This document shows, in pieces, positions 1 to 3,953 of a stretch of DNA of 5,560 nucleotides. Origin of the DNA: a virus (lineage: Duplodnaviria; Heunggongvirae; Uroviricota; Caudoviricetes). The stretch lies in the IMG/VR virus record IMGVR_UViG_2734482785_000015; one strand, given 5' to 3'. A program made the translations under genes and the position numbers. How positions within the stretch are numbered: position 1 is the first letter of the stretch; each line of letters starts with the position of its first letter. A model generated the notes under the pieces. The model did no database searches and was not told where the DNA came from. It worked only from the letters and a program-made list of their open reading frames with translations.

Positions 1-1242
1 ATGGCACGAAAAACCACTCCACTAACCATCACGGAGATCAAAAATGCACGACCAGGAGAAAAAGAATACACCCTGCAGGATGGCGGAGGATTGTTTCTTC
101 TGGTGAAGCCCTCCGGATCAAAAATCTGGCGCTTTACGTATTACCGACCCACTGACAAAAAACGAACCATCGTTAGTCTTGGTCCGCTGAATGATGTTTC
201 TCTGTCAGAAGCCAGAGAGCGACGAAACGAATACAGGGGACTTATAGCGAAGGGAGTTGACCCACAGGACCACGAACGCCGGAAACGTGAAGCAGAGAGC
301 CGGAAAAAGGGCAACACGTTCGAAAAAGTTGCCTCTGACTGGTACGAGATGAAAAAAGGCCAGAATCTCGCTTACAACACGATTAAGGATATCTGGCGAT
401 CCATGGAAAAATACGTATTCCCGTACATCGGAAAAACGCCAATAGATACCCTCACCGCTCGCCGCTTTGTTGAGATACTCACCCCCATTAAGGCGCGTGG
501 CAACCTGGAAACCCTGAAACGCGTTTTACAGCGCATCAATGAGGTGATGGATTTTGCTGCCAACAGTGGTCTGATTGACATCAACACCGCCGCGAACGTC
601 CGTAAGGCATTCCCTACCCCCACCAAAAAGCACATGCCAACCATCCGACCGGAACAGCTACCGCAGCTAATGCACGATTTATCGGTCGCCAGCATAGAAC
701 GGCAAACCAGATTGCTGATTGAGTGGCAGCTACTGACCGTAGCACGCCCCGCCGAAGCAGCCGCCACACGCTGGGAAGAAATAAACCTCGATGCCGAAAC
801 CTGGACGATTCCAGCCGGACGCATGAAGATGCGCCGTGACCATGTGATCCCCCTTTGTGGTCAGGCTATGGCTGTACTGGAAACCATGAAGCCAATCAGC
901 GCACACAGGGAACACGTTTTTCCCAGCCTTAAAAACCCGATGCTGCCAATGAGCAGCCAGACCGCTAACGCCGCATTGCGCCGGATGGGTTACGCTGGTG
1001 TGCTGGTGTCTCACGGATTACGCGCCATATTCAGCACAGCAGCGAACGAGGAAGGATTCGAACCGGACGTAATCGAGGCCGCGCTCGCACACGTGGACAC
1101 GAACGAGGTAAGGCGAGCATATAACCGAAGTAACTACCTGGAAAAACGTGTAGTACTTATGCGCTGGTGGGGTGAATTTGTGGAAACCGCAGCAACCGGA
1201 GTGACCATAGCCAGTGGTAAAAGGGGTATCCGTGCGGTGTGA
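1..1242 (+). CDS. int: Tyrosine-type site-specific integrase, P4-like family
   Basis: 413-aa ORF from ATG at 1 to TGA at 1240-1242. The N-terminus (MARKTTPLTITEIK...DGGGLFLLVKPSGSKIWRFTYY) is typical of the arm-binding region of P4-type integrases. C-terminal catalytic-type motifs are readable: ARPAE (Arg codon 745-747), HGLR (1012-1023), LAH, and Tyr374 (1120-1122) ten residues after the second His. Confidence 0.93.
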   Translation: MARKTTPLTITEIKNARPGEKEYTLQDGGGLFLLVKPSGSKIWRFTYYRPTDKKRTIVSLGPLNDVSLSEARERRNEYRGLIAKGVDPQDHERRKREAESRKKGNTFEKVASDWYEMKKGQNLAYNTIKDIWRSMEKYVFPYIGKTPIDTLTARRFVEILTPIKARGNLETLKRVLQRINEVMDFAANSGLIDINTAANVRKAFPTPTKKHMPTIRPEQLPQLMHDLSVASIERQTRLLIEWQLLTVARPAEAAATRWEEINLDAETWTIPAGRMKMRRDHVIPLCGQAMAVLETMKPISAHREHVFPSLKNPMLPMSSQTANAALRRMGYAGVLVSHGLRAIFSTAANEEGFEPDVIEAALAHVDTNEVRRAYNRSNYLEKRVVLMRWWGEFVETAATGVTIASGKRGIRAV

Positions 1243-1355
1243 CTGTACAAAAAACCAGTACAACCAGTGCAAACCATGCTAAACCATCGTATAATCGCCT
1301 ATCTCCTCAACAGACAAGGAAAAACCCGACTCATGAGAAATCGAGATTTATTGAA

Positions 1356-1598
1356 ATGGTCTGGCACGAAAAATCATCCAATGTCTGCGGTGAAGGGCTG
1401 CAACTGGCGTTAATGGCAAATCGTGAATTCTGGTCAACATACGATCCGGAAGACAAATCAACAGCCCCCACAAAACACGAGGTAGTCAGTTTTTTACGCT
1501 CGCGTGGCGCATCGAAAAATCTGGCTGAAAGCATCGACAAGGTGCTGAGGCCCACCAGCCTTAAATGTGGTGGGCGACCTAAGAAGTGGAAACGGTAA
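1356..1598 (+). CDS. Hypothetical small protein (80 aa from ATG 1356; frame is open from GTG 1239 giving 119 aa; alternative ATG at 1413)
   Basis: Open frame with reasonable enterobacterial codon choice (ctg, gcg, cgt, gaa, aaa), ending TAA 1596-1598 and followed 5 nt later by a strong intrinsic terminator. No strong Shine-Dalgarno at any candidate start, so the start is uncertain. No family recognised. Confidence 0.4.
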   Translation: MVWHEKSSNVCGEGLQLALMANREFWSTYDPEDKSTAPTKHEVVSFLRSRGASKNLAESIDKVLRPTSLKCGGRPKKWKR

Positions 1599-1603
1599 TC
1601 ACA

Positions 1604-1633
1604 ATAGCGGCCCCTTGCGGTCGCTATTTTTTT
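1604..1633 (+). terminator. Rho-independent terminator (plus strand)
   Basis: Stem ATAGCGGCC (1604-1612) pairs with GGTCGCTAT (1619-1627) with one G-T wobble, around a CCTTGC loop, followed by a T run (1627-1633). The minus-strand reading lacks a U tract, so it is unidirectional. Confidence 0.65.
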
Positions 1634-1660
1634 GCAAAAAGAAAGCGTAATCAATGAGAT

Positions 1661-1703
1661 AAAAAACAGTGAGTACCGTTTTAAAACGGTGAGTACTGTT
1701 TTT
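1661..1703. promoter_or_regulatory. AT-rich imperfect 44-bp palindrome with a perfect 16-bp core and embedded direct repeats, upstream of alpA
   Basis: Perfect palindrome ACCGTTTTAAAACGGT at 1675-1690. Outer arms AAAAAACAGT (1661-1670) and ACTGTTTTT (1695-1703) are complementary. Direct repeats GTGAGTACCGTTTT (1669-1682) and GTGAGTACTGTTTT (1689-1702) sit 20 bp apart. Could be an operator or a weak bidirectional terminator/attenuator; function not determinable from sequence. Confidence 0.5.
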
Positions 1704-1767
1704 CCCGCCCTGCCCTGTTTTACCGTATTTATCACCGGAATACGCCGGATTAACGAGGTAAAACACG

Positions 1768-1974
1768 ATGGAAGTAATCAGAAAAATTCTTACCCGTCAG
1801 GAAGTAAAAAATATTCTGCGCATCAAGGCAGACAGTTCGCTACAGGACATGATCAACGCCGGAAAATTCCCGAAAGGCTTCAAAATCGGTCTGCGTCGTG
1901 TTGGCTGGTATGAAGATGAAGTGCTGGCCTGGCTGAAAGAGCGCGAGGAAGAAGCGCGCGGAACGGCTGCGTAA
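1768..1974 (+). CDS. alpA: AlpA-family (P4 Vis-like, MerR-superfamily HTH) transcriptional regulator / excision activator
   Basis: 68-aa ORF with GAGG (1755-1758) 9 nt upstream of ATG 1768. The translation carries the AlpA-type pattern ILTRQEVKNILRIKADSSLQDMINAGKFPKGFKIGLRRVGWYEDEVLAWL. It lies just downstream of a P4-type integrase, as in P4-like cryptic prophages. Confidence 0.85.
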   Translation: MEVIRKILTRQEVKNILRIKADSSLQDMINAGKFPKGFKIGLRRVGWYEDEVLAWLKEREEEARGTAA

Positions 1975-2120
1975 TGGTGTGAGGCGTAACGCGATGAACA
2001 TAACAAAAAGCGCCCCGTTGCCGGAGCGCCCTTGCGAACAATTAACCTACTGCGCAAAAAATGAATCAGTGCAGTGGGATTATATCAACCGTGTAGCGAA
2101 GCGCCACAATTGCCGGATAA

Positions 2121-2153
2121 CAGGCAAAACAAAGGCCACCTGCTACGGTGGCC
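2121..2153 (-). terminator. Rho-independent terminator (minus strand)
   Basis: GC stem GGCCACC (2134-2140) / GGTGGCC (2147-2153) with a 6-nt loop. On the minus strand it is followed by UUUGUUUUG (complement of 2121-2133). No T run follows on the plus strand. Confidence 0.55.
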
Positions 2154-2256
2154 ATTCGACACAAGCTACACGTTATCCCCAACGCATGAGCATTGCCAAC
2201 AATGCCACATTTGCGGCTGGTGGGCAATGTGATCAGTGTGCTGGCTTGCTGGTGGG

Positions 2257-2451
2257 CTATTCCTGCTCTTTAACATCGTCATGCCGCGATGTTTTCCAGG
2301 TATGCGATCCCATTTTTGTGCGCCTGTACTCTTTTAAGAACTTCTCAAGGGCAAACGCACATGGCGCAAATCTTTCTGATTCATGCTCTATCTTTCTGCG
2401 CCGTCTTTTCCGTGCCGGTGATGGTGTATTGGTTGATTCTTTGTTGGTCAT
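2257..2451 (-). CDS. Questionable small basic ORF (64 aa, KRRRRK-containing) inside the transcribed 3' region of the regulator gene
   Basis: ATG-to-TAG ORF on the minus strand between the regulator stop (2509) and the minus-strand terminator. Weak or absent Shine-Dalgarno (AGG 8-9 nt upstream) and several rare codons (AGA, AGG, ATA, CGG) argue against it; position between a gene and its terminator argues mildly for it. Confidence 0.2.
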   Translation of the reverse strand: MTNKESTNTPSPARKRRRRKIEHESERFAPCAFALEKFLKEYRRTKMGSHTWKTSRHDDVKEQE

Positions 2452-2508
2452 TCTGTGTACCTGTAAAGCAATGCGCCGGAGTTCCTCACACCACGGCGAT
2501 GATAGTTA

Positions 2509-2814
2509 TTATTCTGATTCTTTGGCCTTGCGGCGCTGGAGTTCTTCACGTGCGACGGTGACGAGCTGCCCGATCTCCTCGGCAGCTTTGACTCCGATTT
2601 TTTCCACCTGCGCCAGCGCATCGAGCGAAGAAACCAGGGGATTTTCTCCGCTTCCTTCTGCCTGGCGGCGGGCGATCTCACCGCGCATGGCGGTTACTAT
2701 GAATCCGGCGTTGCTTTCACCGTCCAGTTTTACGGATTCCATGCCTTCAAAAGCATCATGTGGGATACGAATTGAAATCTGTTTTGATTTGTCGTTGATA
2801 GTGTTTTTTGCCAT
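2509..2814 (-). CDS. Putative ribbon-helix-helix (CopG/Arc/MetJ-like) DNA-binding regulator, candidate repressor of the divergent operon
   Basis: Minus-strand ORF. The best start is the ATG at 2812-2814 (101 aa, MAKNTINDKSKQISIRIP...), 6 nt downstream of AGGAGA (complement of 2821-2826). The track start at 2853 adds 13 residues without a ribosome-binding site. The N-terminus KQISIRIPHDAFEGMESVKL...SNAGFIVTAMRGEIARR fits an RHH beta-strand, helix, helix pattern. It diverges from an operator-bearing promoter region. Confidence 0.7.
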   Translation of the reverse strand: MAKNTINDKSKQISIRIPHDAFEGMESVKLDGESNAGFIVTAMRGEIARRQAEGSGENPLVSSLDALAQVEKIGVKAAEEIGQLVTVAREELQRRKAKESE

Positions 2815-2836
2815 GTGCATTCTCCTAAACAAAAGA

Positions 2837-2913
2837 TGTGATTCAGTATACACAAAAAAGAATCACAAAAAATACTTGACCTGTGATTCAGTTAAATTTA
2901 ATTTAAATCACAC
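2837..2913. promoter_or_regulatory. Divergent promoter region with two inverted-repeat operator units
   Basis: Unit 1: TGTGATTCA (2837-2845), 13-bp AT-rich spacer, AGAATCACA (2859-2867). Unit 2: TGTGATTCA (2882-2890), 14-bp spacer, AAATCACA (2905-2912). Plus-strand sigma70-like promoter: -35 TTGACC (2875-2880), 17-bp spacer, -10 TAATTT (2898-2903), overlapping unit 2. Minus-strand -10 TATACT (complement of 2845-2850) overlaps unit 1. Confidence 0.6.
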
Positions 2914-2937
2914 CTCAGTAAGAGGATGTAAACGACA

Positions 2938-2971
2938 ACGCCCCGAACTGTTTGCGGCAGTAGCGGGGCGT
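2938..2971 (+). other. Stable stem-loop in the 5' leader of the Icd-like operon (no U tract)
   Basis: ACGCCCCG (2938-2945) pairs with CGGGGCGT (2964-2971); an inner CTG/CAG pair sits within the loop. It lies between the predicted promoter and the ribosome-binding site of the first gene. It is not followed by a T run, so it is not a canonical intrinsic terminator. Confidence 0.4.
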
Positions 2972-3007
2972 CTAACCACCAACGATAGAAAGCGTATCGA
3001 GGTAGCT

Positions 3008-3214
3008 ATGAGAAATCATACCATACACCCGCAAGGGCGGGACTCGCACAACCTGAATAAATACATCTGGCGTTTTATCGCCCTGAGTACGGCACAACCG
3101 CGCGTGATTACCATCGTGGCCACCAGCGAACAGGAAGCGCGCCAGCAATCTCCTGATGGCTGCGTGATGGTATTCGCCGCCCGTATTCGCCAGGAGGTGC
3201 ACCATGTGCAATAA
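3008..3214 (+). CDS. Icd-like (Ash family) small protein; positional analogue of P4 kil
   Basis: 68-aa ORF with GAGG (2999-3002) 5 nt upstream of ATG 3008. The translation MRNHTIHPQGRDSHNLNKYIWRFIALSTAQPRVITIVATSEQEARQQSPDGCVMVFAARIRQEVHHVQ matches my recollection of the host-cell-division-inhibitor Icd-like proteins of P4-like prophages. It is the C-terminal in-frame part of the artefactual 1979-3214 track ORF. Confidence 0.8.
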   Translation: MRNHTIHPQGRDSHNLNKYIWRFIALSTAQPRVITIVATSEQEARQQSPDGCVMVFAARIRQEVHHVQ

Positions 3215-3440
3215 CACCCGTCCGGACGCAGCCGCCGAAGCTATCAAAACGCTAATGCACGCGCTGATTGATATTTCTGTTATCGCGGACATGGCACATA
3301 AGCACGCCACCAGTGAAACAGAATATGCCGGGGCTTTCGTTCCTCACTCACTGGCTGTTATGCAATTTAGTGCTGATATGGCGCTGAATGAGGCAGGCAA
3401 AATTCTTACCGCAGATATTCAAGGGGCGCACCATGCATGA
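3204..3440 (+). CDS. Hypothetical protein (78 aa)
   Basis: ATG 3204 is preceded by GGAGG (3194-3198) and overlaps the Icd-like stop by 11 nt, consistent with translational coupling. No family recognised. Confidence 0.6.
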   Translation: MCNNTRPDAAAEAIKTLMHALIDISVIADMAHKHATSETEYAGAFVPHSLAVMQFSADMALNEAGKILTADIQGAHHA

Positions 3441-3660
3441 TGACCGTTATTTTAAATCAATGAGCCATGCAGAAAATGCGCTGACTAACAGTGAATGCTT
3501 GCGGCAAATATTGCTTATCTGGCTTGATGGTTTAAGTGATGCGCCGGAAGATGAACGTGAATCTAATCTTGCTGGTGCGTTTATTTCATTACTCGATACG
3601 GTAATCGTCGAATTAAATAAAGCGATCGAAATTCACGATAAAAAAATAAACGCGGAATAA
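3433..3660 (+). CDS. Hypothetical acidic protein (75 aa from ATG 3433; track start 3388 is an in-frame alternative)
   Basis: ATG 3433 is preceded by AAGGGG (3421-3426) and overlaps the stop of the preceding gene (ATGCATGA, 3433-3440). The upstream ATG at 3388 has no Shine-Dalgarno. No family recognised. Confidence 0.55.
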   Translation: MHDDRYFKSMSHAENALTNSECLRQILLIWLDGLSDAPEDERESNLAGAFISLLDTVIVELNKAIEIHDKKINAE

Positions 3661-3665
3661 AAACC

Positions 3666-3953
3666 ATGAAACAGAAAAATTCTGGCTTTACTGCCAGCGG
3701 CCCCGCTCGGTCTGAAATCCGCCCCGGCGATATTTTCAAAGATAACTACGGCGGCACGATAACGATAAAAGACGTGGAAGAACGGCGCATCACCTACCGT
3801 CGTGAAGGCTACGACTATGACTGCGTGATGCCTGTTTATCAGTTCCGGCGTGATTTTAAGCTGGTGGGCCATCGTAAAGCCGTAAATCAGAAACGTGCAG
3901 CAAGCTATATCCGCAAAATCCGTGAAATGCTGGTCGCAGGGGGTAAGAAATGA
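3666..3953 (+). CDS. Hypothetical protein (95 aa), tentatively DUF4222-like
   Basis: ATG 3666 lies 5 nt after the previous stop; the TGA stop at 3951-3953 overlaps the ATG of the downstream replication gene (ATGA). The motif ITYRREGYDYDCVMPVYQFRRDF resembles small proteins seen upstream of primases in enterobacterial P4-like islands; this is recollection only. Confidence 0.6.
   Translation: MKQKNSGFTASGPARSEIRPGDIFKDNYGGTITIKDVEERRITYRREGYDYDCVMPVYQFRRDFKLVGHRKAVNQKRAASYIRKIREMLVAGGKK

What the first reader, a model, noticed from the sequence alone, without database searches (positions are those of the whole stretch)
2837..2913. Two tandem operator units built on TGTGATTCA inverted repeats, about 45 bp apart
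Unit 1 is TGTGATTCA-N13-AGAATCACA (2837-2867) and unit 2 is TGTGATTCA-N14-AAATCACA (2882-2912). Each half-site pair is separated by an AT-rich spacer, suiting a dimeric binder that contacts two major grooves across a bendable spacer. The 45-bp offset would allow cooperative binding. Unit 2 covers the plus-strand -35/-10 and unit 1 covers the minus-strand -10, so one protein could repress the lytic-like operon and autoregulate.
Basis: seen in the sequence. Interest (0 to 1): 0.55.

Follow-up and report, generated by a model that had tools for sequence, protein, structure and literature searches.

The report
Satellite repressor operators, specificity-switching boxes
The repeats are real: four 9-bp boxes laid over two back-to-back promoters of an E. 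coli phage-satellite island. They are most likely the binding sites of the small ribbon-helix-helix protein encoded next door, a family with no assigned function, in a type of satellite for which no repressor has been described.

Summary
TGTGATTCA-type boxes sit at 2837, 2859, 2882 and 2904, spaced 22/23/22 bp. They form two 9+13+9 inverted-repeat units 45 bp apart (0 of 2000 simulated sequences reproduce this).

The window is the left end of an enterobacterial PICI-type phage satellite: int, alpA, a leftward YlcI/YnfO-family gene, then a rightward Icd-like/DUF4222/primase operon. The boxes bracket the -10 elements of two back-to-back promoters.

Predictions held in both directions. Diverged Edwardsiella, Klebsiella and Yersinia proteins with the same strand keep TGTGATTCA. 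A scan of 185,579 species genomes for the double unit hit only two sites, both next to such genes.

The likeliest mechanism is autoregulated repression of the rightward operon. Binding and repression are inferred, not shown. The model island EcCICFT073 carries a short version of the module. I found no paper describing it.

The parts
2837..2845 (+). Box 1 (TGTGATTCA), left arm of unit 1. It overlaps the last base of the leftward -10 and the predicted leftward start site (~2838).
   Evidence: The same offset from the ylcI-like start codon (22 nt) is seen in classes A, A' and C.
2859..2867 (-). Box 2 (reads TGTGATTCT on the minus strand), right arm of unit 1. It lies in the spacer of the leftward promoter, directly next to its weak -35 position.
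2882..2890 (+). Box 3 (TGTGATTCA), left arm of unit 2, directly after the rightward -35.
2904..2912 (-). Box 4 (reads TGTGATTTA on the minus strand), right arm of unit 2. It overlaps the last base of the rightward -10 and the predicted start site (~2911).
2876..2904 (+). Predicted rightward promoter P_R: -35 TTGACC (2876-2881), 17-bp spacer, -10 TAATTT (2899-2904).
   Evidence: Read from the sequence. TTGAC and TAAnnT at 17 bp are conserved in classes A-D. The consensus scan misses it in the window (the -10 is only 3/6) but finds the homologous TTGACA-17-TAAAGT in class B. No transcription start data.
2845..2873 (-). Predicted leftward promoter P_L: -10 TATACT (2850 down to 2845) inside the unit 1 spacer, and a poor -35 (ATTTTT, 2873 down to 2868). 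It is the mirror image of P_R, with 2 bp between the two -35 positions.
   Evidence: Read from the sequence. The spacer 'CAGTATACACAAAA' is the best-conserved non-box stretch across classes. Not found by the consensus scan.
2509..2814 (-). YlcI/YnfO-family gene (101 aa), the proposed repressor. Residues about 11-52 form a ribbon-helix-helix domain. Residues 2-23 are the specificity cassette. Residues 55-101 are a long helix or a helix-hairpin-helix-like region. Shine-Dalgarno AGGAGA at 2826 down to 2821.
2257..2451 (-). Small basic ORF (64 aa) downstream of the YlcI/YnfO gene in the leftward operon. Function unknown, and not always present in relatives.
   Evidence: Annotated as hypothetical in L001. 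Absent in L083.
2128..2170 (-). Terminator-like GC hairpin plus T-run that ends the leftward operon. It lies between the convergent alpA gene and the leftward operon.
   Evidence: Sub-threshold isrD-like match whose alignment shows GGCCACC...GGUGGCC UUUGUU.
2938..2985 (+). Conserved leader hairpin (2938-2971) and invariant CUAACCA motif (2972-2978) in the 5' leader of the rightward operon.
3008..3214 (+). First gene of the rightward operon: Icd-like protein (68 aa). It is followed by small ORFs at 3204-3440 and 3388-3660, DUF4222 at 3666-3953, and a DUF927 replicase from 3950 that runs off the window.
1..1974 (+). Context: integrase (1-1242) and AlpA-family regulator (1768-1974). These mark the left end of a PICI-type satellite.
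   Evidence: Island maps of relatives.

Best explanation
The four boxes are the operators of the divergently encoded YlcI/YnfO-family protein (2814 down to 2509). This protein is a small ribbon-helix-helix DNA binder, and its first ~23 residues (N-terminal arm, beta-strand and start of helix 1) set sequence specificity.

The proposed mechanism is as follows. One dimer binds each 9-bp box. The two boxes of a unit lie 22 bp apart, on roughly the same face of the helix, and bracket a -10 hexamer. Occupancy of unit 2 (2882-2912) would therefore block RNA polymerase at the rightward promoter, which drives the Icd-like/DUF4222/replicase operon. Occupancy of unit 1 (2837-2867) would block the protein's own leftward promoter, giving negative autoregulation. 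The C-terminal half of the protein probably links dimers, so that the boxes fill cooperatively.

The module would be the immunity or quiescence switch of this PICI-type satellite. It exists in many specificity classes, made by swapping a ~170-bp cassette that carries the N-terminal codons plus the boxes.

What is shown: the repeats, their placement relative to conserved promoter-like hexamers, the co-switching of boxes and protein N-terminus, and the ribbon-helix-helix fold of the model.

What is inferred: binding itself, the sign of regulation, stoichiometry, cooperativity, and how the helper phage or AlpA overcomes the block.
For: 1. Architecture. The boxes start at 2837, 2859, 2882 and 2904, and 0 of 2000 simulations reproduce the arrangement. 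P_R and P_L are exact mirror images: -35, then a 9-bp box, then 8 bp, then a -10 that overlaps the next box by 1 bp.

2. Conservation pattern. In 80 IMG/VR loci plus 17 others, TTGAC, TAAnnT and the 'TATACACAAAA' spacer are kept while the boxes differ: A TGTGATTCA, B TGTAAG[AC]CA, C TGTGTTTCA, D TGTATATCA, E TGGTATTCA, F/G GGTGTGT-type, CFT073 GTGGGCCACAC, NDM6 GTGTTCAACAC. In classes A, A' and C the boxes sit at the same offsets from the start codon (22, 45, 67, 90).

3. Co-switching with the protein. The beta-strand motifs are KSKQISIRIP for A, KSQSLTARIP for B, KSQLTTVRVP for C and KSQMTTIRVP for D. They are fully concordant with box class in 80 loci. Class representatives are 76-78/78 identical in residues 24-101 but only 9-16/22 identical in residues 2-23.

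4. Other proteins do not track. The same AlpA and integrase (96-100% identity) occur with classes A, B and D. Class A occurs with at least 4 AlpA types and several Icd-like types. Two class-A islands carry unrelated replicases, DUF927 and AAA_25.

5. Forward prediction. Edwardsiella (71% identity) and Klebsiella (66%) proteins with the class-A strand keep the TGTGATTCA boxes even though the flanking DNA has diverged.

6. Reverse prediction. A scan for the double-unit pattern in one genome each of 185,579 species hit only Yersinia pekkanenii and a Klebsiella sp. Both hits are directly upstream of genes with the strand KS[KR]QISIRIP. Within the 97 loci held when the scan was run, the single-unit pattern occurs only at this promoter of class-A loci.

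8. Within-class polymorphism avoids the boxes: class A has 0/36 variable box positions against 7/51 outside (p = 0.04); A+B has 2/72 against 13/102 (p = 0.03).
Against: - There are no binding, footprint, reporter or transcription-start data for any member.
- The boxes and the N-terminal codons are 20-100 bp apart, so their concordance is partly simple linkage. The argument rests on the concerted change of four separate boxes with conserved DNA between them, and on the distant-genus cases.
- The consensus promoter scan finds neither promoter in the window. P_L has essentially no -35.
- Sequence-level support for the ribbon-helix-helix fold is weak. PF07704 scores 16.6 bits against a gathering score of 28.3. 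hhalign against Mnt gives probability 1%. Whole-protein fold searches were uninformative.
- Box orientation is not constant. Classes F and G read as two direct boxes, then the -35, then two boxes in the opposite orientation, with a ~24-bp period. CFT073 and NDM6 have direct repeats. The 'inverted-repeat unit' is therefore not a general property of the family.
- Published work on these satellites attributes induction to the activator AlpA and reports no repressor (PMC6092414). Over-expressing AlpA alone induced EcCICFT073, so any repression by this module must be bypassable or weak, at least in the short 59-aa CFT073 form.
Confidence: 0.7

Rival explanations
1. The module is a toxin-antitoxin-like, self-contained autoregulated cassette. 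In this reading the ribbon-helix-helix protein is an antitoxin and the downstream 64-aa basic ORF is its partner. The boxes would serve only the leftward operon, and any effect on the rightward promoter would be incidental.
Against: The 64-aa ORF matches no toxin or defence family in Pfam or PADLOC, and PHROGs lists it as unknown. No gene is called in that position in L083. Unit 2 mirrors unit 1 exactly on the rightward promoter, and that placement is conserved in all classes examined. An incidental overlap would not be expected to be kept this way.
Confidence: 0.1
2. The boxes are bound by the YlcI/YnfO protein, but it acts as an activator or a switch. For example, it could repress P_R while activating its own promoter, as P22 Mnt does, or it could activate P_R.
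For: P_L has almost no -35, so it might need help from a bound protein. In P22 immI, binding of Mnt at its operator represses Pant and favours Pmnt (established knowledge, not tested here).
Against: In both promoters the boxes lie between -35 and +1. That position normally excludes RNA polymerase, and it is the same mirror-image position in both, which argues for the same sign of regulation at both.
Confidence: 0.08
3. The boxes are sites for AlpA, the known activator of Gram-negative PICIs, or for the Icd-like protein that PHROGs labels a 'transcriptional repressor'.
For: AlpA is required for induction and activates PICI genes (PMC6092414). PHROGs families 6196 and 1743, which match the Icd-like protein, are labelled 'transcriptional repressor'.
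Against: AlpA alleles and Icd-like alleles assort independently of box class. AlpA at 96-100% identity is found with classes A, B and D. Class A is found with AlpA types at 99%, 42% and 38% identity, or only a 60% match over 25 residues, and with Icd-like proteins at 47-91% identity.
Confidence: 0.04
4. The evenly spaced ~22-bp boxes are iterons of the satellite's replication origin and are bound by the replicase.
For: A 22-23-bp periodicity and four or more copies resemble plasmid iterons. Some classes have direct repeats.
Against: Two class-A islands with 98% identical box regions encode unrelated replicases, DUF927 and AAA_25/RepA. The DUF927 replicase also occurs with class-E boxes. The boxes are locked to the promoter hexamers.
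Confidence: 0.03

Closest known systems
Phage P22 immI region: Mnt and Arc ribbon-helix-helix repressors at the divergent Pant/Pmnt promoters
   Same: Small ribbon-helix-helix repressors encoded beside back-to-back promoters of a mobile element, with operators that overlap the promoter cores. Mnt combines an N-terminal ribbon-helix-helix domain with a C-terminal helical oligomerisation domain, like the model here (strand, two helices, long C-terminal helix). The beta-strand signature h-x-h-R-h-P (ISIRIP) resembles FNFRMP in Mnt and FNLRWP in Arc (the Mnt segment is aligned; the Arc and Mnt sequences are from memory).
   Different: There is no detectable sequence homology (hhalign probability 1%). 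Box centres here are 22-23 bp apart, whereas Arc/Mnt half-sites are about one helical turn apart. There are four boxes over two promoters and a single regulator, where P22 uses two. The C-terminal region carries a helix-hairpin-helix-like motif. The element is a satellite, not a phage.
SaPI Stl / Gram-positive PICI Rpr master repressors
   Same: A repressor gene transcribed divergently from the satellite's replication/early operon, next to the integrase end of the island. It would hold the island quiescent until a helper phage acts (PMC6092414).
   Different: To my knowledge (not tested here), Stl/Rpr are larger helix-turn-helix proteins, unrelated in fold. Here int and alpA are co-oriented with the early operon and only the small regulator is divergent. 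Induction in Gram-negative PICIs has been ascribed to AlpA, and a repressor has been called 'unclear' (PMC6092414).
Lambdoid immunity regions (cI/Cro with OR/OL) and their heteroimmune variants
   Same: Repeated operators overlie divergent promoters. Operator sequence and the protein's recognition element change together between immunity types, while the flanking sequences recombine freely (mosaic cassette).
   Different: The fold is different (helix-turn-helix there, ribbon-helix-helix here). The number and spacing of sites differ. Here the swapped protein segment is only ~23 residues, with the rest of the protein identical.
AmrZ and other Arc-like regulators; ribbon-helix-helix antitoxins (HicB, TacA, VapB-type)
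   Same: These are the best structural matches of the N-terminal domain. They are autoregulators that bind repeats in their own promoters.
   Different: The partners and biological context differ. No toxin partner was found here.
EcCICFT073, the model Gram-negative PICI
   Same: It has the same gene order: int, alpA, divergent YlcI/YnfO gene, Icd-like gene, small ORFs, DUF4222, primase. It has the same promoter skeleton, with repeated boxes around the P_R -10, and the same leader hairpin.
   Different: Its protein is a 59-aa short form that lacks residues ~55-97. Its strand motif is KSQALKARVP. Its boxes are direct repeats of GTGGGCCACAC with a 23-bp period, and the boxes on the leftward side look degenerate.

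Membership tests
NCBIfam NF041551 (YlcI/YnfO family, N-terminal domain) | Score above the curated cut-off of the family model | tested here: met
   65.3 bits against a cut-off of 30; residues 9-50 match profile positions 1-42 of 42. RefSeq annotates the homologues the same way.
Ribbon-helix-helix (Arc/MetJ/CopG) superfamily | Strand-helix-helix fold of about 45 residues | tested here: met
Ribbon-helix-helix (Arc/MetJ/CopG) superfamily | Significant match to a curated sequence model of the superfamily | tested here: not met
   The only Pfam match is PF07704, at 16.6 bits against a gathering score of 28.3; 21 of 30 relatives match weakly. hhalign against Mnt gives probability 1%. The profile search of PDB sequences found no ribbon-helix-helix protein.
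Ribbon-helix-helix (Arc/MetJ/CopG) superfamily | Dimer whose paired beta-strands read bases in the major groove of repeated sites | not testable with these tools
   Only indirect evidence: the predicted strand residues and the box cores change together.
Gram-negative PICI (as defined in PMC6092414) | int followed by a co-oriented alpA at the left end, then a replication module (pri/rep) | tested here: met
   Integrase at 1-1242 and AlpA at 1768-1974. DUF927 replicase from 3950.
Gram-negative PICI (as defined in PMC6092414) | Size of ~10-15 kb, packaging or capsid-redirection genes, no lysis or tail genes, att sites, induction by a helper phage | not testable with these tools
   The window ends inside the replicase gene. 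Close relatives (L001, L002, EcCICFT073) carry SSB, capsid, decoration and small-terminase genes.
Type II toxin-antitoxin operon with a ribbon-helix-helix antitoxin | A recognisable toxin gene is an obligate partner downstream of the antitoxin | tested here: not met
   The 64-aa ORF has no Pfam or PADLOC hit, and its PHROG has unknown function. No such gene is called in L083.
P1 C4 / P4 CI / isrK RNA immunity | Match to the Rfam C4 or isrK covariance models near the Icd-like gene | tested here: not met
   No hit at E <= 1 in the whole window, and none at E <= 10 in 2880-3060.
CRP-binding site | TGTGA-N6-TCACA dyad | tested here: not met
   TGTGA and TCACA are 17 bp apart within each unit, and the TGTGA core is not kept in classes B, D or E.
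Replication iterons | Repeat sequence co-varies with the replication initiator | tested here: not met
   Class-A boxes occur with DUF927 and with AAA_25 replicases. DUF927 also occurs with class-E boxes.

The most novel reading that the evidence does not exclude
YlcI/YnfO-family ribbon-helix-helix proteins are the missing repressors (immunity determinants) of enterobacterial PICI-type and related Icd-carrying satellites. A ~170-bp cassette, made of 23 N-terminal codons plus four promoter-embedded boxes, is exchanged between islands. This creates at least ten mutually orthogonal immunity classes on an otherwise identical protein scaffold. Helper-phage induction would then have to defeat this repressor, either directly or through AlpA. 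That would revise the current activator-only model of Gram-negative PICI induction. It would also provide a natural set of compact orthogonal repressor/operator pairs.
Probability: 0.45. Interest if true: 0.75.

Novelty: new member of a known kind. Interest (0 to 1): 0.6.

Why it matters
Gram-negative PICIs are widespread. 1679 of 5426 complete E. coli genomes match part of this 901-bp stretch, and 384 match at least 80% of it. These islands move virulence and defence genes. [quoted passage not shown]

This finding assigns a concrete, testable role to a protein family with no assigned function. PHROGs lists it as unknown, and a 2026 survey calls it only a 'prophage-associated protein' (PMC13612085). 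The same module is present in the model island EcCICFT073.

The natural cassette swaps amount to a ready-made specificity experiment: the protein is identical from residue 24 onward, while the first 23 residues and all four boxes differ. That helps in understanding how ribbon-helix-helix proteins read DNA, and it is useful for building orthogonal regulators.

Tried and rejected
- The profile search of PDB sequences gave no ribbon-helix-helix hit. It gave only a weak helix-hairpin-helix match to Hef for residues 45-86 (E = 0.005). AF2 instead draws residues 60-100 as one helix, so this is unresolved.
- The consensus promoter scan found no promoter in the window. In the Klebsiella locus it picked a different, probably spurious site. 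Only class B gave the expected hit.
- Rfam gave no C4 or isrK hit. It gave only sub-threshold hits: isrD-like, which is really a terminator hairpin, and Plasmid_R1162 antisense at 17 bits against a gathering score of 55.
- PADLOC gave no defence-system match for any small ORF.
- The phage database gave essentially no similarity (one 104-bp hit).
- CRP site, iteron origin, AlpA site and Icd-like-protein site were each considered and rejected, for the reasons given under the rival explanations and membership tests.
- Literature searches for YlcI/YnfO, PICI plus ribbon-helix-helix, EcCICFT073 plus repressor, and related terms found no description of this module. Subscription-only papers were not searchable.
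- The within-class polymorphism test had to drop class C (a 1-bp indel shifts a box) and class D (the anchor failed).

Full report
**1. The observation**

Reading the window gives four boxes:
- TGTGATTCA at 2837-2845
- AGAATCACA at 2859-2867
- TGTGATTCA at 2882-2890
- TAAATCACA at 2904-2912

Both units therefore have the same 9 + 13 + 9 geometry and lie 45 bp apart. The repeat finder returns the 11-nt direct repeat and the perfect 8-bp inverted arms.

The 9-mer is only mildly over-represented on its own: 5 matches against 1.26 expected, and 3 of 200 shuffles did as well. The composite is not chance. Two inverted units sharing a left arm within 100 bp never arose in 2000 Markov simulations.

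The inner arms also form an inverted pair. The simplest description is four boxes with starts 22, 23 and 22 bp apart, which is about two helical turns, in alternating orientation.

**2. Context**

The window encodes, in order:
- a P4-type tyrosine integrase (1-1242)
- an AlpA-family regulator (1768-1974)
- a leftward YlcI/YnfO-family gene (2814 down to 2509; NF041551, 65 bits) followed by a 64-aa ORF and a terminator-like hairpin
- a rightward Icd-like gene (3008-3214), two small ORFs, DUF4222, and a DUF927 replicase that runs off the end

.

Near-identical and related stretches in complete E. coli genomes lie in 10-15-kb islands. Two of them were checked for their insertion site: one lies next to a tRNA-Pro gene and the other inside a prophage terminase gene. 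The islands carry SSB, capsid, decoration and small-terminase genes. They are PICI-type phage satellites.

The model island EcCICFT073 has the same gene order, including a divergent YlcI/YnfO gene.

**3. Promoters**

Immediately left of box 3 is TTGACC (2876-2881). Seventeen bp later, inside the unit 2 spacer, is TAATTT (2899-2904). Box 4 then covers the expected start site.

On the other strand the picture is mirrored. TATACT (2850 down to 2845) lies in the unit 1 spacer, box 1 covers the expected start, and box 2 abuts a very poor -35. The leader that results (about 24 nt) carries AGGAGA 7 nt before the ATG.

These are sequence readings, not mapped starts. The consensus scan misses both promoters in the window, because the -10 of P_R scores only 3/6. 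The homologous class-B promoter, TTGACA-17-TAAAGT, is found by the scan.

**4. Comparative test**

I fetched 80 viral-contig loci through the protein, and further loci through more distant homologues. The upstream regions fall into discrete classes.

The promoter skeleton is conserved: 'CAGTATACACAAAA', TTGAC, and TAAnnT at 17 bp. The boxes differ between classes, and within a class all the boxes are of the same type:

| Class | Box |
|---|---|
| A | TGTGATTCA |
| B | TGTAAG[AC]CA |
| C | TGTGTTTCA |
| D | TGTATATCA |
| E | TGGTATTCA-N13-TGAATACCA |
| F/G | GGTGTGT-type |
| CFT073 | GTGGGCCACAC |
| NDM6 island | GTGTTCAACAC |

. In classes A, A' and C the boxes sit at the same offsets from the start codon (22, 45, 67, 90).

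The encoded proteins are almost invariant from residue 24 onward. They differ in residues 2-23, which form the predicted beta-strand and its flanks:

| Class | Strand motif |
|---|---|
| A | KSKQISIRIP |
| B | KSQSLTARIP |
| C | KSQLTTVRVP |
| D | KSQMTTIRVP |

Representatives of A-D are 76-78/78 identical in residues 24-101 and 9-16/22 identical in residues 2-23. Strand motif and box class agree in all 80 loci.

The other candidate binders do not track the boxes. The window's AlpA and integrase alleles occur with classes A, B and D. Class A occurs with several AlpA and Icd-like alleles and with two unrelated replicases.

**5. Linkage caveat and prediction tests**

The boxes and the N-terminal codons are adjacent, so concordance alone could reflect inheritance as one block. 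Three things go beyond linkage.

(i) Four separate boxes change together while the DNA between them stays conserved.

(ii) In Edwardsiella tarda and Klebsiella michiganensis the protein is only 71% and 66% identical and the flanks have diverged. The class-A strand is retained (KS[KR]QISIRIP), and so are the TGTGATTCA boxes.

(iii) In the reverse direction, I scanned one genome from each of 185,579 species for the double unit. There were two hits, in Yersinia pekkanenii and a Klebsiella sp. Both lie directly upstream of YlcI/YnfO genes carrying that strand.

Within the 97 loci held when the scan was run, the unit pattern occurs only at this promoter of class-A loci. Within-class polymorphism avoids the boxes (0/36 against 7/51 in class A, p = 0.04). 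This last test is weak because the sequences are related.

**6. The protein**

The full-length AF2 model (pLDDT 79) has an extended segment at 11-18, helices at 19-28 and 35-52, and a long helix at 60-100. The N-terminal 54 residues alone model at pLDDT 87.

Sequence models do not reach significance. Membership of the superfamily therefore rests on the modelled fold and on the Arc/Mnt-like h-x-h-R-h-P strand signature.

The C-terminal half is either a coiled-coil-like helix, as in the AF2 model, or contains a helix-hairpin-helix motif. The segment LAQVEKIGVKAAEEI has an invariant I-G and matches Hef weakly (E = 0.005). Either would fit a role in linking dimers or touching the spacer backbone. 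This is unresolved.

**7. Mechanism proposed**

One ribbon-helix-helix dimer binds per box, and two boxes bracket each -10. Occupancy of unit 2 shuts off the Icd-like/replicase operon. Occupancy of unit 1 limits the regulator's own synthesis.

Several boxes have internal dyad arms, as expected for a symmetric dimer: GTGTT-C-AACAC, GTGG-G-CCAC and TGA-T-TCA.

The sign of regulation is inferred from position only. How induction overcomes the block is unknown. The literature shows that AlpA is needed, and that when over-expressed it is sufficient for EcCICFT073 (PMC6092414). That island has the short 59-aa form and degenerate leftward boxes.

**8. Variation that the simple model does not explain**

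- In classes F and G, two direct boxes precede the -35 and two boxes in the opposite orientation follow it, with a period of about 24 bp.
- The short-form islands have direct repeats.
- Class D and the Edwardsiella locus have extra boxes downstream of unit 2.

So the 'inverted-repeat unit' is a property of classes A to E, not of the family as a whole.

**9. Comparison with known systems and novelty**

Functionally, the closest known system is the P22 immI arrangement, with the ribbon-helix-helix repressors Mnt and Arc at back-to-back promoters. Conceptually, the closest are the divergent Stl/Rpr master repressors of Gram-positive PICIs and the heteroimmune cassettes of lambdoid phages.

It is not a sequence relative of any of them. 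It fails the tests for a toxin-antitoxin pair, RNA immunity, a CRP site and iterons.

I found no paper that assigns a role to YlcI/YnfO proteins or describes this operator set. PHROGs lists the family as unknown.

The kind of system, a ribbon-helix-helix repressor with promoter-embedded operators, is well known. What is new is the family, its place in Gram-negative satellites, and the compact specificity cassette.

Noticed in passing
window 2938-2985: Conserved hairpin in the 5' leader of the rightward operon (ACGCCCCG...CGGGGCGU with an inner stem), followed by an almost invariant CUAACCA motif. Five of 14 pairs show compensatory changes in 15 distinct homologues (covariation score 0.150 against 0.072 in shuffles, 0 of 500 reaching it). 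It has no U-tract, so it is not an intrinsic terminator. The only Rfam match is a sub-threshold one to the R1162 antisense RNA. This leader plus the Icd-like gene is present in far more E. coli genomes than the class-A operator block.
   Followed up: partly
L096 10474-10860 (E. coli CFT073, NC_004431.1 1380473-1380860): The model island EcCICFT073 carries the same module, but with a 59-aa YlcI/YnfO protein that lacks the C-terminal helix. Its boxes are direct repeats of GTGGGCCACAC (23-bp period) around the P_R -10, and the boxes on the leftward side look degenerate. A second short-form island (L097, strain NDM6) has three copies of the 11-bp palindrome GTGTTCAACAC. Both short forms seen here go with direct repeats; the sample is too small to judge.
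   Followed up: partly
L086/L088, L091, L092 (classes F and G): In these classes the boxes (GGTGTGT... / ...ACACACC) run as two direct copies, then the -35, then two copies in the opposite orientation, with a ~24-bp period. This differs from the alternating orientation of class A. The rightmost box (TAAATACACACC) resembles class A's TAAATCACACC.
   Followed up: no
L033, L039, L053 etc. (class D) and L089/L090 (Edwardsiella): Extra boxes lie downstream of unit 2. Class D has two further TGTATCTCACA copies. Edwardsiella has a third TGTGATTCA about 20 bp after box 4. This suggests an additional operator in the transcribed leader of some islands.
   Followed up: no
window 2509-2650 (protein residues 55-101): The C-terminal half matches the helix-hairpin-helix region of the archaeal Hef nuclease (PDB 1x2i, E = 0.005) and has an invariant I-G in LAQVEKIGVKAAEEI. 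AlphaFold draws it as one continuous 40-residue helix with high confidence. The two readings conflict.
   Followed up: partly
window 2128-2170, minus strand: GC-rich hairpin followed by UUUGUU, picked up as a sub-threshold isrD-like match. It is most simply the terminator of the leftward operon, placed between it and the convergent alpA gene.
   Followed up: no
window 3008-3214: PHROGs labels the families that match the Icd-like protein (phrog_6196, phrog_1743) as 'transcriptional repressor', while NCBI calls it a 'host cell division inhibitor Icd-like protein'. Its alleles do not track the box classes.
   Followed up: partly
L022 and L026 (class A): Two class-A islands have the P_R -35 changed from TTGACC to TTTACC or TTTGCC while all four boxes are intact. 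These may be promoter-down variants.
   Followed up: no
window 1979-3214, plus strand: A 411-codon open frame runs across the alpA-distal region, the antisense of the YlcI/YnfO gene and the promoter region, into the Icd-like gene. RefSeq annotates part of the equivalent frame in L002 as an Icd-like pseudogene. It looks like an annotation artefact of the real 68-aa gene and not a real long gene.
   Followed up: no
L001 (E. coli EC42405, NZ_CP043414.1): The closest relative of the window (98% identity over the operator region) is integrated inside a prophage large-terminase gene, next to Qin-like lysis genes. That is the helper-embedded configuration described in PMC10111431. It carries a RepA-type helicase where the window has a DUF927 replicase.
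   Followed up: partly
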